A stretch of 63,627 nucleotides of DNA, filler included, from Reticulomyxa filosa (lineage: Eukaryota > Protista > Foraminifera): assembly GCA_000512085.1 (NCBI GenBank). It is 18 parts of 18 records of this genome, joined end to end, with 100 filler letters (N's around TTAATTAATTAA, not from the genome) between each part and the next. Parts side by side here need not be neighbours in the genome. Positions count along the whole stretch, not along the records: positions 1 to 5,161 come from ASPP01009925.1; 17 more parts are not named here. One strand, 5' to 3'. The notes beneath the pieces were generated by a model. It ran no database searches, had not been told where the DNA came from, and saw only the letters and a program-made list of their open reading frames with translations. The translations under genes and the position numbers were made by a program. Positions 1-47,117 of this stretch are shown piece after piece (position 1 is the first letter of the stretch; every line of letters begins with the position of its first letter).

Positions 1-1835
1 CTTTTTTCAGTTTTGTCGCTTTTTTCACTTTTTTCAGTTGCTGTGGAATCACGAGTGGAAGACTATAGAGTGACATAAAGCAATCAAAACAAATGACAGT
101 ACAGTAATCAAAGTAATCAAATCACAAACTCTTCAAAAAACATACCACGACGTTGGAAGCTTCATTGCCTTTGGTCTTGTTTGATTTTTGAGCAGTTCCG
201 TTCCAAATCTTAAAAAATTTCACACCGAATAAGAAAAACAACACGGATTCGGTGACAAGGAAGCATCCAATTGCAACGAATACTCGCTGAGCAACAAAGT
301 GTACACTATGAAGCACAGCCAAAGGAATAACGAACAAGAAGACGATCGAAATGGTGTAAACACTGGCCCCAAGCCAACGCGATTCATTGAAATTTTTGGG
401 AACGCTACGTACACTTACAGCCAACTGAACGATCCATAACAAAAACCCAATGCCAACCACCATAGATATAATGGTGAAAATGGATATGTATTGACACTTC
501 TGGTACACAACGCCATCTGAGTCCAAGGCGAATTGTTTGCTCCAATCTTGTAGCAAAGTCCACACAACCAGATAAGCCGCCACGATAATAAATGGAATCA
601 CCAAGAATGTGGCAAATAAGCGAGAAGTACTCCAGTTGGTACTTTGCAATTTCTTTCTTGCTCTCTTTTTTTTATATTTTATTTTTAATAAAAAAAAGCC
701 AAAAGTTCAAAATATACGTATACATACCTTTTGTCTCACCTCAAAACAGTTTACATAAAATACTTAACAAAAAAAATATTGTGAATTCTCCATGTCTTTC
801 CAGCAATTGGAAATATAATCAGCATAAGACCAAGATGAATAAGCCACATTTGGGAAATGCAATCGGTCATTTGTGGCGCTAATGGTGAAATGAAGACAAA
901 CGCTCCCATCAACAAGCATCCCAACAGAATCATCCACAAGAATGGCAGCGTAGCTCCTCGAATAATTGGTTGTTTTGAATATTTCCAGGTAAATATTCCA
1001 GTGCAAATGACGGTGAAGGCAATGATAGAGCTCAAGAGGATGGCCAATGCCCAAAGCCAATCCGGCACCTTCCACAACACATTTTCAAAAGTGATATCAT
1101 AGGATTCAACAAAGCTCTTGTCGACGTTGGTTGTGATGGACAGCGAAAGACCAGTTTGAAATGCCTTAAACTTCAAGGAGTACACAGGAACGAAATAAAA
1201 GTCAAACTGCGCAATCCCGTTTGTAAAAGTAGGATTAGTTGCACCGCTGATGGTAACCAAATCGGTACCCACGGTACTAAATTTCACATATGCTACTGCA
1301 GATTGATCAAGCGACGTAACCAATGTTCCAAACGCATCGTACAACCGGCACGTCGGGCGAAGTTTGGTCCCTTGCAGTATACGGCTGGGTTGGGTCCATT
1401 TGCACTATTTAAAACATGTCATCGCGTTATTGATTATATATACATATAGCATGTGTATGTATTTGTAACACAATTGTTTGTGTGTTTATTATAGCAAAAA
1501 AAAACACAAAGTAGATCAATTAAATTCCAAACTTCCATTTTCGTAGGAGCTGTCGACTGATCTGCACCAAAAGCGGCATTATTATTTTGATACGTGCATT
1601 TGGTACACCATGTGTTGCAAGTGACAGGCATTTGAATACCCCCACCAGAGTACTGAGCAGAATTTTGGACAAAAGAAACAGTGCTGTTGTATTGCAGACA
1701 TTGTTCTAGGAACATTCCTCCACCATAGAGACCATTGTTTCCAGTGAATGTGGTTTGATTTAATTGTATGTCAGATCCAGTCGCGTGAATTCCACCACCC
1801 ACATTGCTCGCTATATTGTTGCTAAATGTACTTTT

Positions 1836-1868
<33 letters not shown>

Positions 1869-4800
1869 GTGTGTGCGTGTGGCGGTAATTGAAATCATAT
1901 TTGTATATTTTGTAACTTAACTTGTTCGTCTTTATACCATCCATCTCCAAAGCTCAATCCTCCTCCATTGGCTGCCTTGTTATTGCCGATTGTGCATTGT
2001 CTCGTCTTCAGCGCCCCAATGTCGATAGTAACGCCACCTCCACTCGTGCTGGCATTGTTTTCACTAATCGACACATTATCCATAAATATCTCAGCTGCAG
2101 TGTTCCACGTAAAGAAATTTTTATCTGATTCGATAGTCACACCTCCGCCTGAAACAGCCTATCAAAGTAAAAATGTTATTCTTATTCATATGCATACATA
2201 TATATATATGTATATGTCCTGTATATAACTTCATTGCCAGTGATAAAAGAATTTTCGATTTGAACAGTAAGACTCCATCCCTTTGTGGCGCGCACATAAA
2301 TACCTCCTCCATTTTCAATGGCCACGTTATGGGCAATGCGTGCATTACTAATCTGCGGATTTCCTCCGGTGACGGAAAGACCTCCTCCACTTCGTCCCGA
2401 TTTGTTGTTTATAATCGTCAAATTCGTTAAGATCGCCACCCCACTTGCAGCGTCCACAGCCAAAGCACCACCGATCCCGGAGGCATAATTACTGTCAAAA
2501 ATGGAGTTAGACACTGCAGCATTGCAGCCGCGAATGAATAGACCCCCTCCCTTGAAAAGCAAACAAAGCAAAAAGGGATAGTATTTTTTTTTTATTTGTT
2601 GGTTTTAAGACGAATAGAAATTGAGGAGAGGGGAGAGGGGGAGAAAGGAGAAAAAGAACAACAACAAACAAACAAACAAACAAACAAACTTGTTGAGCAA
2701 GATTGGATCGAAATTGGCAATTGGATAGATAGGAGCGACTGGCCTTGCAATCAGCATAGCCATTGCCATCGTAAAGTCCACCACCGTCAACCTTGGCCAC
2801 ATTTCCTTCAAAGATGCAGTAATGAACATCATATATTCCGGAAAGAGGCAAGCCTATTGCCGCCCCACTGCTCGCAACGATGTTGTTTCTGAAGATTGAT
2901 CCATTCACGGTCAGTTTCTCTTGTGCAACAGGTTCAAATACTGTTGGATGATTTTTTTTTTAAAATTGTAGGATCAAACAATCAATTTTTCTCAAGAGGA
3001 GAGGAAGGAGGGGGGAGAAAAAAAAACAAACTGGACCAACTAACCAATTCCTGCACCACTGTCAGCGATATTGCCGTCGAACAAACTGTCAATTACATCC
3101 ACACTTCCACCGTTCATAAGAATGCCTCCACCTGCTTTGTACGCAAAATTATTAATAAAATTACAATTTCGGAGGACGGAAAATCCTCCTTCGATTGCAA
3201 TGCCACCACCAGCTCGACAGCCACAGCCGTAAAAATTGCAATTGGTGCAATGGAGCCCTACGACAAAATCATAGCTGTTGAAATAGATCCCAGCGCCGAA
3301 GGAAGACTCGGTGATGAGGCAGTTCGTCATAGACACATTGGAGACATACATATCTTTCCTACAGTACGGGCATGAAATGGCTCCGTAAAAGCTGCCTGTG
3401 ACATTCTGAGCAATCACATTTTGCACCACATGTCGAGCCTGCGAATTTATAAATATCAGTCCGCCACTGAACAGTGCTCTCGTATTTTCAATGTACACAT
3501 CCGACATAAAGACCTCCCCTTCCGCAAATATTACTACCACACACGATGCGTATGTTATTACACCCTGTCGTATACATAAATACATATTATATGTATATGT
3601 ATGTATATGTCTATTCTTTCACTTCCAAGCCTCTGTATCCATCCTTTAAAAAAATAAATAAAAAAAAAAATGTTCACGAACAAATTACCTCAGTATTGTT
3701 TTTACAGGTCACATTCGATATTATTGTGGAAAAGACTGTGGAAAGGTAAATATTTCCAGTGTAGGAAAAGCTTCTTTCGGTCCACAGACCATCAATCCGC
3801 ACTGGCCCATTTCGAATATAGATCGGCCCTCGCGTGGAACCGTTGCTCCCTGCATCAAATATCGAGACGTTCAACAGCTGTGTCTTTCCCCACGTGTAAA
3901 GTACTGGGTCCATGGAACTGAAAAGGTTACCGTTCACCCACACGGTCTGCAACGTCAACTCTCCTCCGGAAGATACGTGGTACAGTGGTGGATTTTCCAA
4001 CTCGATATACAAATCAATTTGGATATCGTATAACGTCGTGTTGATTTCGTGAAAGTCCGCCGTTTCAAAATAATATACCCCTCCAATTGACTGGGTATAA
4101 ACGTCGAATTGGAAGCCTAATTTTTTGTTTGTTTGTTTATTTGATTTGTTTATTCAGTGTACAAACAATAAAAAGAAATAATTTACAAACGAATTTTTTA
4201 TTTTTAATAAGTTAATATTTCGTTAGTCAAGTTTTTTATTCATAACCTTTAATAAGAATAGCGATGTTTGCAAATATGGCCAACGGCTCAACAAGTAAGA
4301 ATTGATTGTCAATATCCGCACTGATTTCCACAACACAAGGACGACCGATAATGGATGTGTTACAAGCAATGGTCAGAGCTGAATTCTTGTCGGTCACGTA
4401 TAAGATATTTTGCCTATTTACGAATATGTCTGTCAGTACGATGACATTGAACGATTTGTATGCGAGTGACAATTGATAGGCTTCTTGCAAATCATCTGTC
4501 GTCAGAACATTCCCCAAACTGTATTTCGACAGGTTCTTTGCAGCTCCGGTGCGTCGTACACGTATACCACGTCCGTGTTACCTAGTTATATTGCATTTGT
4601 ACCAACGAATTTGGTTGTTTTTTTTTTTTTGTAAGAAAAGGAGAGAAAGAGAAAGAAAAAAAAAAAAGAAATAAGAGAACAATCACGGTGTGCATGTACA
4701 CCTGCATTGTTGTTCCTCGACAAATGTACACACCTGTCACAAGATAGTCTGTGATCTGTTGTTGTCCCAGATCCAAATACTCCCAAGTCATTGTTCCAGC

Positions 4801-5031
4801 TCCTTGGTCAAATCCGCCGACGACAAATAGTAGTTTTTGCGTAGGATGGTAGGCAACCCCACACCCATGGCGAGATTGAAACAAAGAGGTGGCAAAGCCG
4901 AGATAAGTATCGTTCGACAAATCGAACATTTCGGTCAATGCAAGAGAGTGGTATGTGTTATCAACAGACATGCCCCCAACCAGCAGTACAATCGAGTTAA
5001 TCAAAATAGCTTGACCTTGAAAACGTGGTAT
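1..5031 (-). CDS. Multi-exon class C (GABA-B/glutamate-type 7tm_3) GPCR-like protein with Kelch-like and parallel beta-helix (Pmp-like) ectodomain; partial at both ends
   Basis: 7TM exons 751-1344 and 122-649 carry class C motifs: QPIIRGATLPFLWMILLG, GKTWRIHNIF, VRSVPKNFNESRWLG. Exons at 1533-3565 carry repeated FxxN..GG(G/A)(I/L) motifs. Exon ~4700-5031 has Kelch-like VGG...RHGCGV...LFVVGG. GT-AG AT-rich introns lie between exons. Confidence 0.8.
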
Positions 5032-5161
5032 CTTTTTTTTTTTTTTTAAATTTAAAACTAAAAAAAAAAAAAAAAAAGAAGTAGAATGTGTTGTATGATG
5101 AAATAAGATAAAAAGGGAACTGGATATTATTCTTATATATACATGTATATGTGTATGTATA

Positions 5162-5261
5162 NNNNNNNNNNNNNNNNNNNNNNNNNNNNNNNNNNNNNNN
5201 NNNNNTTAATTAATTAANNNNNNNNNNNNNNNNNNNNNNNNNNNNNNNNNNNNNNNNNNNN
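5162..5261. other. Artificial contig linker N44-TTAATTAATTAA-N44. It recurs starting at 9426, 12537, 14140, 18883, 20260, 22244, 23357, 25610, 35367, 40952, 42796, 45162, 50540, 55472, 56913 and 61213
   Basis: Identical 100-nt unit with stops in all six frames, present 17 times. Confidence 0.99.
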
Positions 5262-21405: not shown

Positions 21406-22243
21406 ATGAACTTAAGCACACCAATGAAAGTTTTGCTCGAGTTTTCTTTAGGTTTTTCTTCTTTATTGCTTGTTCATCATTTTTACTTCATGATTAAAAT
21501 AGTCAAAAGAAGAAGACATCAAAAAATTATCCATTATTGGATTCGAATATTAAAGATTAAATTGGGATGGATCAAAGATTTTGATGAACTTGTTGTCGAT
21601 TATGTCAGTTTATTTGTTTTTTTTCATTTTGGTGTAAATTAAAATATTCCAATATTTATTTAACATAGGCATCTCATGTCTTCACATTTGATTCGTTTCA
21701 TTCATCATCCAAATTACTCAATACATTCACTAAACATAAAAGTATTGTGTGGAGTATTGATTTTGTAAAATTTGATGATCGTCAATTAATTTGTTCTGGA
21801 TCAAGTGATAAAACAGTTCGTATACGGGATATTGATAAAAACAAACAAATTCAATCATTGAAGGAGCATTCATCTGATGTGCTATGTGTGAAATTTTCAC
21901 CACATCATTATAATAATCATCGTCAATATGTCATTTGTTCTTCATCAAGTGACAAAACCATTCGTTTTTGGGATTTCAAACATAATCAGCAATTGCAAAT
22001 ATTGAAGAAGCATACTAGTTATGTTTATGGAATTGAATTTTCATCATTTAATGGTGGTAGATATTTGTTTTCTGGATCTAATGACAAAACAATTCGTTTA
22101 TGGGACGTTGAAACATACAAATCATTACATATTTTCAATGGTCATGAAGATGCAGTTAGATGTGTTAGTATTTCACCATTACAAAGTAATAAAAAAAATG
22201 ATGATGATAATAATAAAATGAATAATATTGGTGTGATTGGTGG
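21406..22243 (+). CDS. WD40-repeat protein, 3' partial
   Basis: Repeats SGSSDKTVRI, SSSSDKTIRFWD, SGSNDKTIRLWD, GHEDAVRCV; intron ~21604-21669; one -1 break near 21521. Confidence 0.9.
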
Positions 22244-22343: not shown

Positions 22344-22935
22344 TATATATATAAATAAAGAGTCAATCAAACCATTTGTTACAACATTGGACCAAGAATC
22401 ATCGCTATAATTGGCAAGTGTCCACATTCCATCGGGAGAAATGTAATATTTCCAAGTGGTATCACTGACTCCAAATATATTGGCATGACTTACACTCCAA
22501 TAACACATGAATGCACCATGTCCACTTCCTTTGCTTGTTGCATTTATTGCGATGACATTATTGCCAGAAATGACTGATACTTGTTTTGAATACCACATTT
22601 TGGGATCATCGGTGGTCATTGCCTTTTCACCATTAACATAGATTTGACTTGCACTATTCACGATACATTTCAAGTACAATTCATTGGTTGGTGAAATATT
22701 ATTTGTGTGAATCGTATTCGAATATTCAATTGTATTGTTTACTGTTTTTATATTTGATATACTTTTCACAAATCCATTTAATATGTACAAATGATTATTT
22801 GCTATTGCACTGCTTGCATACATTCGATCCACTTGAAATGACACTCCAGTAGGTTGAATATCTCCAGTTTCCATATCTTTGATTATTTATTATATTATAT
22901 TTATATTTATATTTATAATATTATTTATTTATTTA

Positions 22936-25989: not shown

Positions 25990-28229
25990 TTACCGCAATT
26001 GTCCGTTTTGGTGGTGTAATTGATGAAAATTTGCATAACTCATGAATTGTAAAGGTACCTCTTTCAAAGTTTCTCGCGATAACTGTGCAAAATTTGTTTC
26101 AGCCAGTCCAATAGGTTCTCCTTTTTCGTTTGTCAGTATTTTTGAATAGTCTTGGAAAGACACGAATTGTACAATATCTCGTTTAGCTGTCTGACCAGTA
26201 GAAGCTTGAAGTGCTCCACTGTCTGCATCCAATTGTTTCATTAAATAAAAATCTGCCATTCCAACACCAACAATAATTACCGATAACGGCAAATACTTAT
26301 TGGCAGCCATTACCAATCTAACAAGATTTTTTAAAACTACTAATAATGATCAAGTTTTTTTAAGACTTCAAAAGCAATGGTTGTATAGAGGAGGATATAA
26401 TACAAAATTGTATAAAGAGAAAAACTAAACAAATCCTTTGTTTCTTGAAAATCCTCAATCACACCATCCGTTAAAATTAACAAAGTGTAATATTTAATTT
26501 TATGTTTGACGTTGGAATGAGCCATCTCTGCAAGGTAACAGCTTTCTTTAAAATGGGATAAAACAGCGTTGGTCCAAATAGTTCAACCTTTGCCAGTGCA
26601 TTCAAATATGCTTCTTCAATGCCATAAACTCCACGGACTTCAGGATTCATATCATTACCGTTTAAAGGGAAGACATGCATTACATCTCCATGTGGAATTT
26701 TTCCACCCTTATTTCCAACGCAAGGTGTGCATAAAACAAGCAAAAAATTAATTGAAAAAAAATGAACAATTTTTTTGCTTGCCTACAATCTAGAATACAT
26801 TAAAAAAAAACAAACTAAAAAAATACTTAACAAATCCCCAAACCGGGAACCTTTGATCTGAGTCGTAACACGACACAGTGTTTGCAATAGTTCGAAGTGC
26901 AAGTTGATATTGTGTGCCTTGTGCAGACAAATGGTGTAAACTTTGAGAATGAGATGGTTTGCCATTTGATGCAGTAAAATCAATGGCAACCATTAATGAC
27001 AAATCTATTCCTCCCATCACATAATCTAAAAACGAGAAAAAAGGTGTGGATCTAAATTCTACTACTTTCAGAGTACCCACTTTTTTTCCTTTTTTCTTGC
27101 CATTTTCTAATTCAACATTGAAATTTTTTCGCAAAGCATTCAAAGTAGTTTTGACTTCACCAATCAATTCATGCGATCCATTGCTATCCCAATCGAGTAC
27201 TCTGAAAAAAGTATCCACAATATATAATAATGTTATTGGCTCATTTCATTGCATCAGCCTACACACATGCACACAAATACCTCAAAAGCAAAGATCGATC
27301 TGGATCTGAATTGCACAATTCTTGTGAACTGATGGTGATAGGTTTCCAAACTGGCTTTTCCGTATTGTCAATCTTTTCGGTCCTATACACCAAAAGTGGT
27401 TGTGTATTGGTCATACGATAAATCTCCAAGAACGGATCTGATTTTCCAAAGAAATCCATGCTGGCCAAATGCTCACCTCCAAATGTAATCACTATTCCTT
27501 CATGTCCACATTTAGCTACAACTTCTATACGAGCTGTCAATCGTGAACACATTTTTGTCGATCCATTTTTCATTGATTTCCCTTTGTGCAATAACATTCT
27601 CGTCATTTGCTGACCTATACATGTCATTCATACCGTATTTGTTTAAATAACCAATATAACAACATCATTAAACAAAAAAATATACAAATTACCAGAAGCA
27701 TGCATAATCTCTCCCAATGTCATATTGCAACATCCGATGAAATCCTGTCCTTTTAGACTTTTGGCGTTGTTTTTGTCTTGATCGTATACGTCAAATCTTA
27801 CCTCTTGCTCTTCTTCAAATGCAAAATCGACTACAAATGATTTTCCAAAACTGGGATTGTATTCATCCCTTTCGTTCACATGCACAGCAAAAAAAAAAAT
27901 ATTGAAAAAAAATAAATTTTGAAAAAGAATGTCCATGTGTTTTTTGTAGTGTGATGATGTTACTCTCAACTTGATTGTTTCTGTTCGTCCAATTTCCTCA
28001 AATTTTCCCGTTTTTGAATCTTTTATGGATACTGCAAGTATACAGTGTTAGTATCGTGTGTGCAATATTTTTTAAAAATGTGCAAATATTGGAGCAGACG
28101 TATAACTTTACCTACAACAAAAGCATCTGTCTTGCTGAACATATCCTTGCTCACGAGATCTTGACATGACAAAAAAATTTCAATTTTTTCTTTGTAATCT
28201 CCTCCAGCTGATTTTGGATCTTGCGTCAT
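25990..28229 (-). CDS. Copine (C2A-C2B-vWA)
   Basis: SCQDLVSKDMFSKTDAF, MDFFGKSDPFL, VAIDFTASNG, YDSDQRFPVWGF, GPTLFYP, LLILTDGVI, PLSVIIVGVG, RDIVQFV. Confidence 0.95.
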
Positions 28230-28574: not shown

Positions 28575-29977
28575 TTAGGTAAGTGAGGCATTGGCATTCA
28601 TTTCAGCATTTATATTTTCGGAACTAGAGACAGAAAGTTCATCCTGACTTTTCCTAGGACTTTCAGTGACCGGCGGCAAAGACAAGACTTCTTTCTTTTT
28701 GCCTTCATCTGTTTTGGACTCTTCGCTCTCCACATCGGCAGCAACCAAGATGGGCTGAGAAGATTGGGACAACAAGAACGGGATATTGGCCGACGAATAG
28801 GTGCGCCTGGAATTGATCTGTTGGACATGCGCCTGAGTACGGGAGTATATGACCTCAACAGCACGTTGATGAATGGATTGGTTGGAATGTGCTTCCAAAG
28901 TCGGGAAGGCGATCAAAGTTTTGGCATCCGAAATGCGATCATCAGCGGACATGATGCCTTGAGGATGTTTATGCAAAAGCTTCAAGTTGTCCATATCCAT
29001 TTGCTGCATGGCATTGAGTTCTTGTTTGGACGAGTCTTCGAGTTTGAAGATGGTGTGTTCCAGGACGATTTTGGGAACACGTTCATTGGAGCGATAGCGT
29101 TCGACAAAAGCGGTGATATTTTCATCGACGTGGAATGCTTTAAGTTATTTTGGAACGAGAGCAAGGTCTGGTCCATTTTGAAGCACTGTTTTTCCAAGGC
29201 AATGGTATAGCGGAAGAAAATGACACGACTAATGTGCAAACGAAAGAGTTCGACTTTGATGAAATCAGTGACAATTTTGGAATGAAGCATATCACGATAG
29301 TTGTGTTTCTGTTGCAGTTGCACTTGCAACATGTCCGGTTGTTTTCTTCCATGGACAGCTTTTCTTGATTGATTTTCAAATCTTTGTTCAGTTGTTCGGT
29401 CGACCGTTTGAAAAATTTGAACCCTTTGCGACGATTGTCATTGTCCTTTTTTTCGGAATTGCGTTGCTGCAGCTTATTTTCCAATGTCGTGACTATGGTC
29501 TTGAGTTTGTTCACTTCGTGTTTGGACTTGTTCAAGCTGGCCTCCAAGCGATTGTACTCATTGTTGCACTCGTTCAACAAGGCCTGCGAAGAGCCCTGGA
29601 AGTCTTTTAGCTTTTGCTTGGTGTCGTTCAGCGCCATTTCCACCTCACTGTGGATTTGGATTTGACTGCAAAACTCGTTCGACAGCTTGCTGAACAACTG
29701 CACCACATGCACGAAGGCGTTCATTATGTCATTCAACGCGAAGCCGTAGTCGAACGCCAATGGATTGCTGCCCCACTCTTGCAACTTTCTCGTGTACTGT
29801 CTCAGTACCTCCTCCTCCACGCCATGGCGCATATTCATAAACTCGATCATCGCTTTCACCGTATTCGCACCCTTGTCATTGCAAGCCCAGGCCATTTGCA
29901 CACTTTTTTCATTCCACGGGATTGCCATTTGATTATTATTATTATTATTATTATTGTTATTATTATTGTTATTATTA

Positions 29978-30021
<44 letters not shown>

Positions 30022-33000
30022 GCTATTACTATTAGTACTGCTATTGCCTGTACTTGATCCAAGGCCATGAGTGGTGACAATAGCCTTGTGTTCATCGACG
30101 ATCTCGACTTTGTTGGGCAATGTGTTTTCGTGACAAGCCAAGATGAACTTGTCGGTTTCTTGATCGGAGCGAATTAAATGGGTGGCATCGTAGAGTTGTC
30201 GATTGGCTTTGTTGATTTTTTTGAGCGCGGAAAATAGCACATCGATGACTTGCGCACACGTTTTGATGAGCAGATATTCCCTTTCCACCTCTTTCATTCG
30301 AAACGTGTCCAGAATCACTCCATTGCAAATGTGCTCTTTCTTACGCACCGCCTTTAGCAGCTTCTTGCTCGTCTCCCACGCCTCGTCGGTGCGACGATAA
30401 TTGTACTGTGTCTCATGCATTTGCTGCAGCAAGGTCAGCAATGTATCTTCCATTGACGTCTGTTCCACCGCCTGCTTCCACGCGTTCTGTGCCGTTCGAA
30501 ACAGTTTCTGACATGTGTTTCTCTCCTCGTAGCACTGTTCTACGTGCTTGGTTGCAAACTGCACTTCCGTCGACAGCGTCATTTTCTTGCGCTGCAACAT
30601 GCGCGTTATGTTGCGCAACTCGGCCTTCAACACTTTCAAGGGAATGACAACGTCTTTGATTTCGATTGCGCTGTTGCGATAGGCCTGGCTTTGCACCTCC
30701 GTCACACTTCGCAATTGGTTCCAACACGTTTGCTCGCATGAATTCGCTTGCGGTAATGTCTTCATTTGCGTGTGACACGTTTGCAACTTTTTGCTATGGT
30801 TGTCCCATATCAGCGACAGGTCTTCCAACACCTTTGACATTTGCTTGATTTGGGCTCGTCCGTCCTCGCTCTGCTTCAGCACCGTCTCGAACGCCTGCGC
30901 ACCCCACAAATTGTCCGCGTAATGATTCACGCTCACCTGGTCTTGGCCAGGCCCCTTCTTCTTCAGGTTTTCCTTTGGGATTAGCAGCGACATTGATCGA
31001 GGCTTCATCCCACTCTCTTTGAATGAATGGCGTGCTTCCATTTCATTTGCACTTGCATTTGCATTTGCATTCACATTTGCATTTGCATTTGCATTTGCAG
31101 TTGCATTTGTGGTAGGGTCCTCTGGCAATGGCAGTGACTCAAATTTTTTTAACACAACCTCAGACGTCTTTTCAGAATCAGATGCACCTTCACTTGTTGA
31201 CTTGCTCGTTTTCTCGTATTTGTTCTCACCCTCGTCTCCATCCTTTTCTTCCAGGACCGGTGGCAATGTCAAAATTTTCAATCCGGTGGTGTCCTTGTGT
31301 TCCTCATTATCATTGACATTGGTATTGGCGTTGGCGTTGACATTGACATTGCGGTTGGGGTCAATTGTGGTTGATTGGTCTTTGGAATCACTTTTGTCGC
31401 GACGATGGCCTTGACTATCAAGAACGAGGTTGTCATTTGCAATACCGGTGTCAGTGTTGCTGTCGGTGGTGATGGCGACGAGGACGGAGGACAAGGTGAG
31501 CGCTTCGGCATTGCGTTGGGCCTTGTCGTCTGTTGGAAGAGACGCACTGCTGCTGCTGCTGCTGCCGCCGTCAGTTTGAGTCGACACTTTCAATTGAGTG
31601 TTGTCTCCAGACGGAGCAGGTACGCGGCGTGACGAAGAGGACGAGGATGAGGATGAGGATGATGAAGCCGATGCTGAGGTGGCCGCTCCGGATGATGACG
31701 ATGATGACGTGGACAGTAAAGTATCTTGCAAGTCAACAATGGACAGATTGTACTTTTCGACGACTGAAGGAAGCTCAATTCTTTGGACAACGAGTAGCGC
31801 CTTTCCAAAGTCCCACTTTGTGGCCCTTTGATATTATCTGTGTTGTTTTTCATTTCAACACCAGCACCACTTTCATTGCCACGTTTCTTTTCCTTGATAT
31901 TGCTATTGCTATTGCTATTGCTGTTGATGGGAGCATCAGAGTTGAACTTTTGATCATAGCCATGCTCGTCACTATCTGCATTGGGCGTGGACGGTCTCTC
32001 CAGCACGTCTCCGTCGATACTGGCCTGACGATTTTGCGGGATCTCATTTCCTTCGGAAAACGACTCAATGTCCATTTCCGGCGAAATTTTTTCCAAGAGG
32101 CGACGCAACTGGGCAAACTCATCGACATAGGATTGGTGCAGTTGCTGTTGGTTGGAGGCAAATTGCAGCATGAGGTCTTTGAACATTTTGATGCGGTCGC
32201 AGCTGTAGCGCTTCACATCCGCTATCATCTGCGGCATCGACTCGGTGAAGATGTCCAAATTCGTCAAAAACGCCGTCGTCGATTCCACATGCTCGATATC
32301 CGCTTGATCGCGATTGTCTAGCGCTGTTACCATGGTCGTCATACGCTTTGGATTGCTCGTCAAATCTTTTTGCGCGGACTTATTGTCCCCCATGTTGTTA
32401 TTACTATTATTATTATTATTATTAATAGTATGATCATTATTATTATTATTATTATCATCATCATCATCATCATCAATGGTATGGTTTTCATTGTCGTCAT
32501 CATCATTGTCGACTTGAAGATGATATTGTTGCGACTGAGTGGCACCAGTATTGTTATTGCGATTGTTGATATCGGCCAGCCGTTTGATGGATTTTGTCCT
32601 CGTCTTGTTGGTGAACTCGACGTCGCACTTCCTAGTGGCCGTGCGCTTTTCGCACTCTTTAGCGGTTTCGAAGAGCACTTTGATGTTGGACTTGGTGGTG
32701 TGTATCATTTCGATGAGAGGGATGGCGCACCCTTTTTTGCATTGGCCAAAGGACTGTTCGGTCATGGAAGACATTTTCTGGAACAGCTGTCGACACTGGA
32801 GCCAGGGCAGGTCAATGGACGTTTTGGTGTTGGGCAGAGTGGAGTGGAAGGCATGCACCAGCTTGGACATGTGTGTCATATGTTCGAAATGCACGCTTTG
32901 CCAGCGCGTGAGAAACAGCGATATTTCGTCAAACAGCACATTTTGAGCTTCGATGCGAGCGTCCAAAGAATGCCAATGGCGATCGTACAGACGTTTCTTT

Positions 33001-34314
33001 TTGAAGAACTCCACAGACATCCAGCTAATGTGCATGACGGGTTGTTCGATCAAGTCTTTTTCCGTCACGAGGATATCAGTGGGACGAGGAGTCCCAAACA
33101 ATCCAGGATCCAATGATAATGGAAAGCCATTGGGATAAGTAAAGGCATACCCACTACTATTACTATTGCTATTGCTATCACTACTAAATATAGTATGTCT
33201 GGTATGACTTGGACTACGAGAGTGGCCATGACCATGGGTAGTAGAAAAAGGCTTGGCGACGATATAAGGGTTAAGCTTGTCCCACATGAACGTGGAGTCA
33301 TTTAAAAAAGGGGTAACCTTGCCATTAGTCTCGTCGATTTTTTCATCGAAATACAAGACTTCGTAGTTGTGTCCTGACGCTTCGAAACGCTCGTCGATGA
33401 AGCATTGGAACATTTGCGACTCCACGAACATTTCAAAGAAGGTCTGGTTTTCCGTGTTGGGACAGTTGTCTCGAATCCACTTGTCTTTGTTAAACTTTTC
33501 TTTGGAAAAGTCGTTGTTCGATGGGTTCATATAATTCTTATAATCGCGGAATAGCTTGGCATAAAATCGCACAAACGCTTCTCTCATCTTTTCCTCTTCC
33601 ACACTCATGTTGGGCTTCAAGGGTTGGCTGGGGTCTTTGATCAACTTGGATGTATACCGGTCCAACTTTTGTCTGGGGAAATACGGAATGGGGTCATTGC
33701 GATGATGCGAAATGCTATTGTCATCCAAGTTCACAAAGATCACCCCATCCAATGTCTCCACGTCCGGCATATACTCGGGCAACACTCCACACAGAAATGG
33801 CATCGGTGCCGTGATAAAGTCGATAAACTTGCTTGGTAATACTGGCACGTATATATGCTGCCAATAAAAAGGGTAGATCAATGTCGTCAGCCCTTCAATG
33901 CACGGGGTCAACAACGACAGATTGTTACTGAAAAACAGTATACGTTTTTCACACAAAATCGCGCCCATTAAGGTTATTATGTTTGAAATGCTCATCACGT
34001 GAAACAACGTGTCCAGGCTGTGTCCTCGCAAAGGGAGCTGGTTCGGAGGGGGTCGCACGAATTCAATCCTCTCGTTGTACACTTCCAACTGCACAATGCG
34101 ACGGCCCAATGGGGGCAATGGCGTTTCCATTATTATGTTTTGCAACACCTTTTCGATCGGATATAACACTGACTTAGTTTGGCTCTCCTCCTCCTCTGTC
34201 ACCTCGTACAGCTTTGTTAAGATTTTATTGAATTGCTCATAAAATGGCCAGTGCGATGATATTACTAATGCGATCGGTTCGTAATAGACTTCGTTGTCAT
34301 CATTTTCATTGTCA

Positions 34315-34385
<71 letters not shown>

Positions 34386-34972
34386 GTCATTGTTGTTACT
34401 ATTATTGTCAGTAGTAACGTTGTCATTCGTACTATCCTTTTGTAACTTTAGCTTGTCCTGTTTCTTGGATAGATTATGTCCTTTTGCTCGGTATTGCCTC
34501 TTTGTTTCCTTGCTCAACTCGCGATTGTAACGCAAGGCCGAACAATACACTCTTGAACCGTCTGCTTCCGTTAGCACGAATGAATATTGCTGGGGTTCCA
34601 TTTTGCTGCTTGCAAAACGCGCCCCGTCGGGATATGCAAATGCTCCAAAGTCTTTGGGAAACTCACTGTCATTGTGATCAGTGGACGGATACCGAAGGCA
34701 TGGAGACATTGGGATACCTCTTTGCTGAACTAAAAACATACAGCATGTACAAAATTCATTCTGACTAAAGGGTACTCATATTTTTATCTTTCCTCTCCCC
34801 CCTCGGTATTACATGCACTCAAGGGTTAAAAAAAAAACAAAAAAAAAATGTGGAACATTGAGTCAATAAGACTGGTAAATGAAACTACATTACATCTTTG
34901 AGTCGTTGTCACATGGTTTATATCCAATCTAAGGACCGCAAAATAATCTGCAACACGAAATGGAGCTGGCAT
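28575..34972 (-). CDS. Large DENN-domain (Rab GEF) protein with three F-BAR-like coiled-coil units; interrupted by three frame breaks
   Basis: uDENN RVADYF, FAYPDG, SFVLTEADGSRVY; cDENN LCEKRILF, PFYWQHIYVPVLP, APMPFLCGV; dDENN FVESQMFQCFIDER; F-BAR-like YADNLWG..FETVLKQSEDG. Confidence 0.85.
29931..30025 (-). repeat. (AAT/AAC)n microsatellite encoding poly-Asn; similar tracts at ~34310-34400 and ~39765-39850
   Basis: Trinucleotide repeats directly visible within ORFs. Confidence 0.95.
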
Positions 34973-38058: not shown

Positions 38059-38952
38059 TCAAAAGTCAGAAAAGTGTAATATAGTACCACACGTTCGGCA
38101 ACATGGTCCCTGTTGATAATATTTTTCAACGACAAATTGTATAAATTCAAAAATATTTTCTTCTGTCTTGGCACTTACAAATCCACCAAAAATAACATTT
38201 TGATCTTTTTTGCTTTCACAAAATGCTTTGGCTTTGGACACAAAAGTTCGTCTCTGTTTATTTGAGATTAAGTCAACTTTGTTTCCACAAACTACGATCA
38301 AAGGTTGTTTCAAATGTTTTTTTTTGCAGAGTTGCTGAATATAAGGCAATTCCAAATCCAAGCTGTGAAGAGTTGTTTCATTTGTGAGGTCATAGACCCA
38401 CACAAATACACTTGATGTCGTGTAGTACTTGCGTCTGATGTTTATAAATGGCTCTTGTGCTAAACTCCTCAAAAAATAGATTAAAAATTTACACAGTGCA
38501 AGCAAATGCTCATTAGCTGTGCGTTCCTGACAAAGACTCCATAACAATGATAGTGATAACAAAATTTCTAAACTGCAAGAGTCCCACACTCGTACTCTAA
38601 AAAAAAAGTTCTGAAACTGCTCGAAATGCGTGACCACGTCCACTCCTATTGTGGACGAATGATCAGTTGGAAATGGATGACGGTTCCATCTTTGCATAAT
38701 TGCTGTTTTTCCAACACCTGTGTCACCAACAAAAAAAAGTGACACTGAGACATTGTACTTGTCAATAAGTTGTGCACGTTCAAACGCAAACTGGCAAATC
38801 ATTTCCATCACTTCCAGTGGAAATCTGTGCGTCACCTTACAAATTTTTGTCCAACGGTGCAGAATCCGCATTATATCATCAGAAGTAGCACGATCACTAC
38901 ATAAATGTGATTTCTTTGAGGCAGCCTGATTTTTTGAAGAGAAGAGTCCCAT
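38059..38952 (-). CDS. Divergent Rab-like small GTPase with N-terminal myristoylation motif
   Basis: GDTGVGKT, TIGVD, WDS..QE, VYDLT, GNKVD, SAK; MGLFSS start; intron 38460-38573. Confidence 0.9.
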   Translation of the reverse strand: MGLFSSKNQAASKKSHLCSDRATSDDIMRILHRWTKICKVTHRFPLEVMEMICQFAFERAQLIDKYNVSVSLFFVGDTGVGKTAIMQRWNRHPFPTDHSSTIGVDVVTHFEQFQNFFFRVRVWDSCSLEILLSLSLLWSLCQERTANEHLLALCKFLIYFLRSLAQEPFINIRRKYYTTSSVFVWVYDLTNETTLHSLDLELPYIQQLCKKKHLKQPLIVVCGNKVDLISNKQRRTFVSKAKAFCESKKDQNVIFGGFVSAKTEENIFEFIQFVVEKYYQQGPCCRTCGTILHFSDF

Positions 38953-39438
38953 ACGGTTTAATATGCGAACTTCAACTCTCACCTTTTTTTTCTCTTTTCT
39001 TCCCTGTTGTAGTCTTTCAAATTGGCTCTAGATCTTTTTTCGTTGTACGTCACAATTGTCCTTAAGTAGCTGAAAAAAGGCATTGTACACCAATAATAAT
39101 AATCGATTGGCCTGTTCGTAAGGGGGATTTTTTTGAGTATTTGCTGGAGAAAGTGCACATCTGAATGTCCGCCAAAAGATCAAATAGAGATTTAGAATCG
39201 AATTCCGAAGGTGAATTGATATTTTTTATTAACATGTTGCATGTAACTTGACTGATGTTCATGTCGATGCCTCATATTGTTTGTGTGTTTTTGTTGTTCT
39301 CCTTCCTCTTTCCCACGCTGTTTTTTTTTGGAAGGAGGAGAGAAACACAAATGCGGACATAAATTTGGAAGAGACCTCTGTTTTTTTTTTGTTAAATGAA
39401 TTAATATTCCAACAAACGTTGCGGTTAAAGCGGGATCA

Positions 39439-45261: not shown

Positions 45262-47117
45262 ATGCAAAGTGCAAACAAACAACTACTTTTTTTTTTTTTT
45301 TAAAGCATGATGTATCCCAATATAAGAGTAAGGAGGATACGTGTGTAAATTTTTTTTTAGGTAACAAAAATTCAACACGTGCCCGACCAAAAGTTATGTA
45401 ACTGTAAAATATTCCTTGCCTTTTACTGTTCCTTTATGGGTTCCGGTGCTTCCCCCAGTCAATTCGATTCCATAAAATATACCTTGAGCATAATGCACCT
45501 CTCCAATGTACCTTTATTTTTTTGAAAATATCTGATATATTTTTATCCAAATAAAAAAAAATTTAAAAAAAAAAAAAAACCTGATGTAGCCCTCTCTATC
45601 TTGTGTTAAGATGACCAAGTCTCCAACTTGGTATTCGTTTTTTTTTTGCTCCGATGCATCAGCTCTTTTATTGGAATTACGTTTGGGATGCTGTCGATAT
45701 CCAAAACCAATCTTTGTAATTGCATTTTCATCGTCAAAGTATTCGGCGTCGAGTAGATTAGTGTCAGGTTTATTCGAACGTTTCAATTTGAGGACTTCGT
45801 AAATTGACGGAAGAGAGTCCGATTCAATAATGTATCGCTGTTCTTCTTCGTCATATCTGATCATCATCTCACCTCCTTTCCAATGATTGCTGCCATTCGC
45901 ATTGATTGTTATGTGTCCATCTTTTCCATCCGATTCATTCAGACCATGTTTGCATAAACATGTGGACATTATAAAAAAAAAAAAAAGGAGGGAAGATAGA
46001 GTGTACATTAATTCGAGCAAAAAAAAACAAAACAAAACAAAAAATAATAAGCTTGTGACTGAGTGTTTAATTTTGCGTGATGCTGACCTGCAGAAATGTC
46101 ATATCGACACTGAGTCCCATCATCATAAGTGAGATTCCATACTCCATAAATTATTTCCATGGAGCTGTTATTCGATGAATTGGAAGGAACAATACCCAAC
46201 TCTTCCCCTTCTTCTTTCAATATCTTACCTGTTAACTTTTTTAAAAAATAAATAATAATAAAAATTGAAATTGTAACTTTGTCTGTTCAAAAGGGGATAT
46301 ATGTACATGCACATATACATGCGAAATGTATGTGTATGTGTAATAACCCAACATCAAATTTAATTTGCAAAGACTCTTGTCTTCTTTGTCTATTCGGAGA
46401 CGAATTGTCTTTGTTTGTCATTTTTCTTCGAATGTTATTGTGGTCAACAAAAATGCATCTTTGATCTGTTCCTTGGAAATAATTCTTTCCTTGGTAGGTT
46501 CCATTGTGTTCTCCAAGGCTTCCGGCTATCAATTCTATTCCATATTGCAATGTAGATTCACTAATCCCGGATACAATCCCAATATATTTCACTATCCCCT
46601 CTCGGTCTTTCGACAGCAACACGCGATCACCAAGTTCATAATTATTTGCGTATTGCGTCATTTTACCTTTGATTTCGAGCTTTTTTTCGTCATCAAAATG
46701 TACCAATCCTAATGTTCTATTTTGAATTTGACTTTGATTTGATTGTGATGGCTTATGTCCTTTTGCTTCGTTACTTGGCTTTTGAGGAGGCGAACCACCA
46801 CTCACTACTTCAAATATGCTTCGAGACAACGCATTTTCTATGCAATATTCATTTGCGTCTTTATCATATGCAATCGTCGTATTTATATTATCCCAATTGT
46901 TTATATTCGATGGAATTGTCGTCACATGTCCGTCTTTTTTTTTTTTTTTTTGTTGAGTTGTTTGTTTCTTTGGTTAAGTTTACAGAAAAGTTTTTTTTGG
47001 GGTATCCAGCTCACCACGAGCAATCATATAAGTTGCAATGGAACCATTTTGGAGTCTCACTATCCACGTACCACTAACCATGGAAAGTGGTCCTACCACT
47101 TGTATAGTTAGTGACAT
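45262..47117 (-). CDS. Tandem CAP-Gly domain protein, 3' end uncertain
   Basis: YELGDRVLL..REGIVKYIG..YGIEL..GEHNGTYQGKNYF and YQVGDLVIL..REGYIR/YIGEV..YGIEL..GTHKGTVKGKEYF. Confidence 0.85.

What the first reader, a model, noticed from the sequence alone, without database searches (positions are those of the whole stretch)
1..5031. Class C GPCR whose ectodomain is Kelch-like plus Pmp-like beta-helix instead of a Venus flytrap
Seen: one co-oriented exon chain runs from Kelch-like repeats through many FxxN-GGAI-type repeats and a short Cys-rich/beta-rich stalk into a 7TM with class C signatures (KTWRI, PKNFNES). Known: animal class C receptors use a Venus-flytrap periplasmic-binding fold, and FxxN/GGA(I/L/V) repeats typify chlamydial Pmp adhesins and pectin-lyase-like beta-helices. 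Inference: an adhesion- or glycan-sensing receptor, possibly for substrate or prey contact.
Basis: partly seen in the sequence, partly recalled or inferred. Interest (0 to 1): 0.78.

Follow-up and report, generated by a model that had tools for sequence, protein, structure and literature searches.

The report
Foraminiferan beta-helix class C receptor
This gene of the giant amoeba Reticulomyxa encodes a glutamate-family (class C) G-protein-coupled receptor whose outer part is a long, rod-like beta-helix, likely topped by a Kelch propeller, instead of the usual clamshell; the beta-helix design is already published for gut fungi and other protists, and the receptor likely senses surface sugars or polymers, which is untested.

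Summary
Real gene, mostly known design. The stretch is one contig (1-5161) of the foraminiferan Reticulomyxa filosa (protein ETO23444.1); the gene is cut at both ends. The 7TM is class C (7tm_3 E 6e-33; mGlu8 E 2e-12). Fourteen Pmp-like coils (shuffles: at most 2) fold as a right-handed beta-helix, followed by a beta-sandwich stalk. An independent single-ORF homolog spans six of the introns (39% over 764 columns), so beta-helix and 7TM are one chain. Beta_helix+7tm_3 and Kelch+7tm_3 are each already listed (de Mendoza 2014 supplement; Seppala 2016, about 30% of gut-fungal class C receptors), I found the former in forams, amoebozoans and filastereans, and this scan found it before in Rozella. 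The Kelch exon is real (Kelch13 E 1e-5), but its link is only likely (about 0.7): the best splice pair runs into a stop and needs a one-base frameshift or a weaker acceptor; no RNA was available. New are the Kelch+beta-helix combination, seen in no homolog, and a foram-centred receptor clade lacking the TM7 proline (0 of 16). Ligand unknown.

The parts
4734..5031 (-). Exon A: two Kelch-like blades (likely the end of a propeller whose other blades lie beyond the contig end); donor 4733 preferred, 4729/4701/4699 possible
   Evidence: (Kelch protein 4yy8 E 1e-5, KLHL20 E 0.01); codon-usage score favours this frame (9.0 against -13.6 and -30.5)
4512..4581 (-). Unresolved junction zone: coding-like (53% GC) but the frame opened by acceptor 4582 stops near 4502; needs a one-base frameshift or an inner acceptor (4544, 4536, 4519)
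4247..4511 (-). Exon B, certain part: likely N-terminal cap of the beta-helix
   Evidence: codon score 10.0 against -34 and -28 in the other frames; likeness to the mature N-termini of P0006/P0058 by eye only, not significant
3689..4116 (-). Exon C: irregular N-terminal coils of the beta-helix
   Evidence: (pLDDT 27-51 in the first third, 50-87 later)
3045..3564 (-). Exon D: beta-helix coils
   Evidence: Z 25.8 to AlgE4 A-module, rmsd 3.1, 310 aligned
2690..2940 (-). Exon E: Pmp-like coils with a conserved Asp/Cys side loop
2230..2550 (-). Exon F: Pmp-like coils
1917..2158 (-). Exon G: Pmp-like coils
1533..1830 (-). Exon H: last coils and Cys/Trp C-cap of the beta-helix
769..1404 (-). Exon I: beta-sandwich stalk plus TM1-TM3 (KTWRI)
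   Evidence: the NCBI model drops 43 codons of this stalk; paralog fragments end or begin at this same intron
146..664 (-). Exon J: TM4-TM7 (PKNFNES; TM7 lacks the class C proline)
1..62 (-). Exon K: start of a Ser/Thr/Lys-rich cytoplasmic tail, running off the contig
   Evidence: open frame; aligns to the Ser/Thr tail of P0002; P0005 aligns across the junction

Best explanation
The gene encodes a class C G-protein-coupled receptor of Reticulomyxa filosa in which a right-handed beta-helix and a beta-sandwich stalk replace the Venus flytrap, likely with a Kelch propeller at the tip, and it likely works as a contact sensor that binds a polysaccharide or other repetitive polymer on prey or substrate and signals to a heterotrimeric G protein. 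Shown: class C 7TM with the TM3-ECL2 cysteines and the TM3 Lys/Arg and TM6 Glu; beta-helix, stalk and 7TM in one chain; membership of a foram-centred receptor clade. Predicted: the folds. Inferred: export by a signal peptide beyond the contig end; binding along the beta-helix, perhaps at a conserved Lys/Asp/Cys-Cys/Asp/Trp cluster about ten coils above the stalk; transmission of binding or pulling through the rigid rod and stalk to ECL2 and a receptor dimer; G-protein coupling.
For: 7tm_3 114.9 bits, E 6e-33; 58 solved chains matched, the listed ones all class C receptors, best mGlu8 E 2e-12. P0002, one ORF of 786 aa on a 2490-nt contig, aligns with the spliced model across six introns at 39%. 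Its model (pLDDT 88.9) matches GABA-B 7TM (Z 28.5, rmsd 2.1, 252 aligned) and beta-helices (Vag8 Z 28.0, AlgE4 Z 26.6, pertactin Z 25.4); most beta-helix rows are polysaccharide-binding or -cleaving proteins. Gut-fungal class C receptors with this fold were called putative carbohydrate-binding (PMC5168858). Conserved non-structural residues in close homologs: D585 9 of 11, C592 9 of 11, C620 11 of 12, D644 10 of 12, W703 7 of 11, K577 7 of 11 (model numbering). Rhizaria have the machinery: Bigelowiella 12 7tm_3 and 35 G-alpha genes; G-alpha motifs in the foram Ammonia.
Against: No ligand, expression or coupling data. A shared beta-helix fold shows no function: adhesins that bind proteins (Vag8, pertactin) tie with the glycan enzymes. 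In chlamydial Pmps the repeat motifs are structural and adhesion sits in side loops (PMC11166332 abstract). The 570-705 region is not more conserved per window than the rest (0.16-0.27 against 0.16-0.34), and the cluster was picked after the fact. The TM7 proline is absent in 16 of 16 clade members and the TM3 Arg is kept in only 7 of 16, so canonical activation is not assured. The Kelch junction is unresolved, and no homolog carries Kelch before the beta-helix.
Confidence: 0.45

Rival explanations
1. Protein-binding adhesion or self/non-self receptor: the beta-helix side loops (as in Pmp, pertactin, Vag8) and the Kelch propeller bind proteins on other cells or on the cell's own fusing reticulopodia.
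For: Best beta-helix match of the homolog model is the protein-binding Vag8 (Z 28.0), pertactin Z 25.4; repeats are of the Pmp adhesin type; the family is expanded and divergent in forams; Kelch propellers commonly bind peptides (general knowledge).
Against: Glycan-active beta-helices score within 1-3 Z units and fill most rows; conserved Asp/Trp/Lys residues fit a glycan or cation site.
Confidence: 0.25
2. The beta-helix is only a spacer that lifts the real sensor (here the Kelch propeller) above the glycocalyx, or acts as a lever for mechanical sensing.
For: Very regular coils with mostly structural conservation; ectodomain length varies widely among homologs; Kelch//7tm_3 receptors exist without a beta-helix.
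Against: The Bolivina homolog P0006, which looks full-length, goes from a hydrophobic N-terminus straight into the cap and helix with no room for another domain, so in that receptor the helix must be the sensor.
Confidence: 0.13
3. The Kelch exon is not part of the receptor (separate or nested gene, or a transcript ending at the stop near 4502), or this copy is a young pseudogene with a real frameshift.
For: Best-looking splice pair leads to a stop; frame tests did not favour the frameshift reading (profile 2.1 against 2.2 bits, 106 of 200 shuffles as good; codon score -1.2 against +2.4 for the downstream frame); no homolog has the Kelch part.
Against: Exon B has no Met or signal peptide in frame, so it needs an upstream exon and exon A is the only one on the contig; 11 canonical splice pairs join A to B in frame; the other 3.6 kb of coding sequence has no stop; the NCBI model also joins them (same DNA, not independent).
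Confidence: 0.27
4. The ectodomain is an active polysaccharide lyase or hydrolase whose product or conformational change is reported by the 7TM.
For: Fold matches to PL6 lyases, epimerases and tailspikes; conserved Asp, Lys and Arg residues in adjacent coils.
Against: Identity to those enzymes is 6-15%; the sequence search of solved structures listed no beta-helix enzyme; no pectate-lyase Pfam family hit.
Confidence: 0.07

Closest known systems
Class C GPCRs with pectin-lyase-fold/parallel beta-helix ectodomain of anaerobic gut fungi (Seppala et al. 2016, PMC5168858)
   Same: 7tm_3 with a long beta-helix ectodomain, no ANF and no NCD3G domain; carbohydrate binding proposed, untested
   Different: Rhizarian host; likely Kelch module; no EGF domain seen here; gut-fungal sequences were not compared directly
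Beta_helix//7tm_3, Kelch//7tm_3 and Bmp//Kelch//7tm_3 architectures (de Mendoza et al. 2014, PMC3971589, supplementary figure text)
   Same: Each module is listed with 7tm_3
   Different: No Kelch+Beta_helix+7tm_3 entry in the passage seen; Reticulomyxa and Foraminifera not named in the 3 files searched
Foraminiferan paralogs and homologs: ETO25434.1, ETO11886.1, ETO31328.1 (Reticulomyxa); Bolivina argentea P0006, P0016/P0152, P0017, P0020; unnamed P0002, P0005, P0008, P0009
   Same: Same coils, stalk and 7TM (24-66% identity); one clade, SH-aLRT 99; shared intron position in Reticulomyxa fragments
   Different: None has a detectable match to the Kelch exon; most are N-terminally incomplete
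Animal class C receptors mGlu, GABA-B, GPR156, GPR158
   Same: 7TM fold and most signature residues
   Different: No Venus flytrap, NCD3G or Cache domain; TM7 proline missing; Phe where mGlu8 has the TM6 Trp
Chlamydial Pmp and archaeal adhesin-like beta-helix proteins (PF02415)
   Same: FxxN and GGA(I/L/V)-type coil repeat
   Different: No autotransporter barrel; ends in a GPCR; the repeat is common in unrelated bacterial, archaeal and eukaryotic proteins, so it is no sign of chlamydial origin

Membership tests
Class C (glutamate) GPCR, PF00003 | 7tm_3 profile above curated cut-off | tested here: met
   114.9 bits against 33.5
Class C (glutamate) GPCR, PF00003 | Seven TM helices with class C fold | tested here: met
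   seven hydrophobic segments in the model; homolog P0002 model has seven long helices, Z 28.5 to GABA-B; the window protein's own 7TM was not folded
Class C (glutamate) GPCR, PF00003 | TM3-ECL2 cysteine pair; TM3 Lys/Arg and TM6 Glu (ionic lock); ICL3 P-x-x-F-N-E | tested here: met
   all present and aligned to mGlu8; the position labels are recalled
Class C (glutamate) GPCR, PF00003 | TM7 xPKxY motif | tested here: not met
   reads GVKFF; Pro in 0 of 16 clade members, 57 of 80 others; Lys kept in 14 of 16. Typical, not universal (23 of 80 others also lack it), so it does not remove the protein from PF00003
Class C (glutamate) GPCR, PF00003 | G-protein coupling and dimer formation | not testable with these tools
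   needs experiment; no complex prediction was run
Venus-flytrap class C subfamilies (mGlu, GABA-B, CaSR, T1R) | ANF_receptor ectodomain, with or without NCD3G | tested here: not met
   no ANF or NCD3G hit; the available ectodomain folds as beta-helix; the missing 5' part cannot be seen
Beta-helix class C GPCRs (Seppala 2016 type) | Pectin-lyase-like right-handed beta-helix N-terminal to 7tm_3 in one chain | tested here: met
Beta-helix class C GPCRs (Seppala 2016 type) | Common descent with fungal, filasterean and amoebozoan beta-helix receptors | tested here: inconclusive
   7-8 label changes among 60 labelled rows, but the AU test does not reject one clade (p 0.14); no identified gut-fungal rows
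Kelch repeat (PF01344 clan) | Kelch blade motif (Arg ... hydrophobic-GG ... E-x-F/Y-D) | tested here: met
   two blades; E 1e-5 to a solved Kelch propeller; Atlas 0.96; under Pfam's cut-off; the terminal Trp of the blade is not kept in blade 1
Kelch repeat (PF01344 clan) | Complete six-bladed propeller in the same chain | tested here: inconclusive
   contig ends 130 nt upstream; pLDDT about 30 for this part; junction unresolved
Adhesion GPCR (class B2) | 7tm_2 domain and GAIN/GPS cleavage motif | tested here: not met
   no 7tm_2 or GPS Pfam hit; no GPS-like motif by pattern. It may still work like an adhesion receptor
Chlamydial Pmp autotransporter | C-terminal autotransporter beta-barrel | tested here: not met
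   C-terminus is 7tm_3

The most novel reading that the evidence does not exclude
Foraminifera independently built and expanded their own clade of class C receptors with a polymer-binding beta-helix rod and a rewired TM7 (no proline), and this member adds a Kelch propeller, giving a two-site contact receptor by which reticulopodia tell prey, substrate or self: a class C receptor that works like an adhesion GPCR and is switched by tethering or force rather than by a closing clamshell.
Probability: 0.15. Interest if true: 0.65.

Novelty: new variant of a known kind. Interest (0 to 1): 0.32.

Why it matters
How a rigid beta-helix rod, which cannot close like a Venus flytrap, switches a class C 7TM is an open mechanistic question, and no ligand for any such receptor turned up in my searches. 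How foraminifera recognise prey and substrate with their reticulopodia is, to my knowledge (recalled), unknown at the receptor level; this clade is a concrete candidate. But the design itself has been in print since 2014-2016, and the one new element, the Kelch tip, rests on an unresolved junction in a fragmented assembly.

Tried and rejected
No whole genome is held for this window, so the 5' and 3' ends and the full paralog count could not be recovered. No RNA holder was listed; this is no evidence either way, and no reads were laid. A scan of metagenome contigs with P0002 gave 44 pattern matches, none confirmed. Word-based searches: stalk/TM exon 1 hit of 1387 candidates, 7TM 2 of 1450, Kelch exon only P0001 of 198; weak evidence of absence. 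Frameshift against inner-acceptor reading: pairwise scores to 10 N-termini, a two-sequence profile and codon usage did not decide (one search had the frames shifted by one and is used only for exon A). A Kelch profile from six blades of P0124/P0056 failed its positive control (it did not find exon A), so it says nothing on Kelch in homologs. Foldseek on the N-terminal model gave no match at E 0.001; VIA did. The stalk had no fold match of its own in the whole-model search and was not folded alone, so 'Ig-like' is a reading of its strand pattern. The TM6 Trp column was badly aligned in the other rows and is not used. The Reticulomyxa genome paper is not held; figure S2 of PMC5168858 is a picture and could not be read; only 1 supplement of PMC12716839 was searchable and had no hit; file 1 of PMC3971589 was not searched; these may list the Kelch+beta-helix combination or foram receptors. 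Rejected: chlamydial gene transfer (repeat is widespread, gene has ten spliceosomal introns); two separate genes for beta-helix and 7TM; link to neighbouring contigs (joined by artificial spacers, no similarity).
Full report
Setting. The window is a chain of 18 contigs joined by N-padded spacers. The finding fills the first, 1-5161. A protein search with one exon returned ETO23444.1, 'adhesin-like protein, partial [Reticulomyxa filosa]', 1310 aa, on a contig of 5161 nt, so the host is this foraminiferan and the public model already joins all exons. That model is a prediction from the same DNA and reads through intron sequence at three places. The other contigs have no similarity to the gene and give no context.

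Gene structure. I rebuilt the gene from splice sites. Eleven exons lie on the minus strand: 5031-4734, about 4581-4247, 4116-3689, 3564-3045, 2940-2690, 2550-2230, 2158-1917, 1830-1533, 1404-769, 664-146 and 62-1. Nine introns are GT-AG, 71-139 nt, AT-rich and in phase. The corrected model aligns better to the homolog P0002 than the public one (469 against 410 bits, 41 against 66 gap columns). There is no start, signal peptide or stop on the contig.

One chain? P0002 is a single ORF of 786 aa on a 2490-nt contig, too short to hold the six introns (611 nt here) that it spans; it is colinear with model residues 551-1279 at 39%. A full HMMER search with P0002 gave 4404 hits at E 0.001, of which 150 were listed. 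I scanned 87 proteins with Pfam (42, 45; chosen for a 7TM match and length, or as likely close fragments): 18 of 87 carry 7tm_3 together with Chlam_PMP or Beta_helix. Of 20 looked up by name, such proteins come from Reticulomyxa (2, plus a stalk/7TM fragment), Bolivina argentea, Pigoraptor chileana and P. vietnamica, Vermistella antarctica (Trinity transcript names) and Trichosphaerium. The query biases this sample towards the design. Beta-helix and 7TM in one polypeptide is therefore established for the family and, by colinearity, for this gene.

The 7TM. 7tm_3 scores 114.9 bits; the solved-structure search lists class C receptors only, best mGlu8 at E 2e-12. The TM3 and ECL2 cysteines, TM3 Lys and Arg and the ICL3/TM6 PKNFNE are present (labels recalled). 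TM7 reads GVKFF instead of the usual xPKxY: the proline is in 0 of 16 members of the gene's clade and in 57 of 80 other rows.

The ectodomain. Fourteen regular coils of the Pmp type lie in model residues 490-865 (shuffles: mean 0.23, maximum 2). The P0002 model (56 rows, pLDDT 88.9) shows a beta-helix (1-345), a beta-sandwich of about seven strands (346-473) and seven helices; it matches GABA-B (Z 28.5), Vag8 (28.0), AlgE4 (26.6), GPR156 (26.6) and pertactin (25.4). The model of P0001 1-639 (40 rows, pLDDT 62.1) is confident from about residue 290 and matches beta-helices over 260-638 (best Z 25.8); residues 1-220 are below pLDDT 50. Together this gives a rod of roughly twenty coils (my estimate). 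Among 16 close homologs a few non-structural residues are kept in neighbouring coils (K577, D585, C592, C620, D644, W703), a candidate binding site, though that region is not more conserved per window than others.

The Kelch exon. Exon A has two blades: E 1e-5 to a solved Kelch propeller, 0.96 to Kelch clusters, 16.3 bits in Pfam, under the cut-off. Its link to the rest is the weak point. Donor 4733 and acceptor 4582 look best and are in phase, but that frame stops near 4502; the downstream frame opens at 4577. Either one base is missing in 4577-4503 (a homopolymer error is plausible; that the assembly used 454 reads is recalled) or an inner acceptor is used (11 of 44 pairs give an open frame). 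Tests did not decide. For the link: exon B has no in-frame start or signal peptide, and A is the only upstream exon. Against: none of the other 154 stored proteins matches exon A below E 0.19, and P0006 and P0058 begin with a hydrophobic leader followed directly by the cap region. I put the link at about 0.7.

Phylogeny. A quick ML tree of 96 7TM domains (7 of 103 dropped as short or redundant) puts the gene in a clade of 16 rows (SH-aLRT 99) that holds all 8 named foram rows; its 10 rows with enough ectodomain are all beta-helix type, the other 6 are fragments. Seventeen more beta-helix receptors are spread among ANF, Bmp, LamG, RCC1 and other ectodomains. Of the 27 beta-helix labels 17 rest on Pfam and 10 on my motif count. 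The label needs 7-8 changes on 60 labelled rows, but one clade is not rejected (p-AU 0.14), so independent origin is not shown.

What is known. Seppala 2016 (PMC5168858, passages): 107 gut-fungal class C receptors, none with ANF, about 30% with a pectin-lyase fold or beta-helix repeats, under the heading of putative carbohydrate-binding domains. De Mendoza 2014 (PMC3971589, passages and supplement hits): the supplement lists Beta_helix//7tm_3, Kelch//7tm_3 and Bmp//Kelch//7tm_3. Krishnan 2012 (PMC3251606, passages) and PMC12716839 (passages) describe varied non-animal class C ectodomains without naming beta-helix or Kelch in the main text. I found Kelch+7tm_3 directly in P0056 and P0124. PMC11166332 (abstract), PMC4758236 (passages) and PMC10284544 (passages) give background only. 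Paper searches showed no report of foram class C receptors or of Kelch+beta-helix+7tm_3; subscription papers, among them the Reticulomyxa genome paper, are not covered. This scan noted the same beta-helix design earlier in Rozella (e1-7126395).

Mechanism. Most likely (0.45) a contact receptor for polysaccharide or similar polymers on prey or substrate, signalling through stalk, ECL2 and 7TM to G proteins; rivals are protein adhesion or self-recognition (0.25), spacer or lever (0.13) and enzyme-receptor (0.07). Separately, the Kelch exon may not belong or the copy may be broken (0.27). Identity as a beta-helix class C receptor gene is about 0.95; everything on ligand and coupling is inference.

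Verdict. A real, correctly read receptor gene of a design published in 2014-2016, here in a lineage where I found no report, with a probable new Kelch add-on and a clade-wide TM7 change. Interest 0.32.

Noticed in passing
window 5162-5261 and 16 further places: Contigs are joined by 44 N + a 12-base AT spacer + 44 N; the window holds 18 unrelated contigs, so neighbourhood has no meaning.
   Followed up: yes
window 22344-22886 (-): Open frame with one Kelch-like blade (domain E 0.003 with my six-blade profile) followed by a Trp-rich beta-sandwich-like stretch; no good Pfam hit; no similarity to exon A. Possibly another foram surface protein with Kelch.
   Followed up: partly
window 29143-34775 (-): Two long overlapping open frames (1061 and 897 aa): uDENN-DENN-dDENN, then a weak F-BAR hit; the overlap at 31593-31833 suggests an intron or frameshift in one DENN/F-BAR gene.
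   Followed up: partly
window 26793-28047 (-): Copine gene exons.
   Followed up: no
window 21669-22241 (+): WD40 repeat protein, of a kind recalled as highly expanded in Reticulomyxa.
   Followed up: no
window 38062-39027 (-); 46290-46973 (-) and 45517-46098 (-): A Ras/Roc-like GTPase frame; a CAP-Gly protein with a short N-terminal segment that seems repeated in the next frame.
   Followed up: no
proteins P0038, P0043, P0063, P0074, P0079, P0080: Further class C ectodomains among the hits: RCC1+Calx-beta, LamG/pentraxin+Ig, hemopexin+CUB+filamin+fn3, 5'-nucleotidase C; the RCC1 and hemopexin/CUB ones were not in the passages I read.
   Followed up: no
proteins P0012, P0014, P0007: Fragments that end or begin exactly at the intron between window 1533 and 1404: paralog genes split by annotation or assembly, so the family is larger than whole-protein searches show.
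   Followed up: partly
protein P0006 residues 1212-1332: Marginal FKS1_dom2 hit (27.5 against 27 bits) inside the 7TM, probably a hydrophobic false positive.
   Followed up: no
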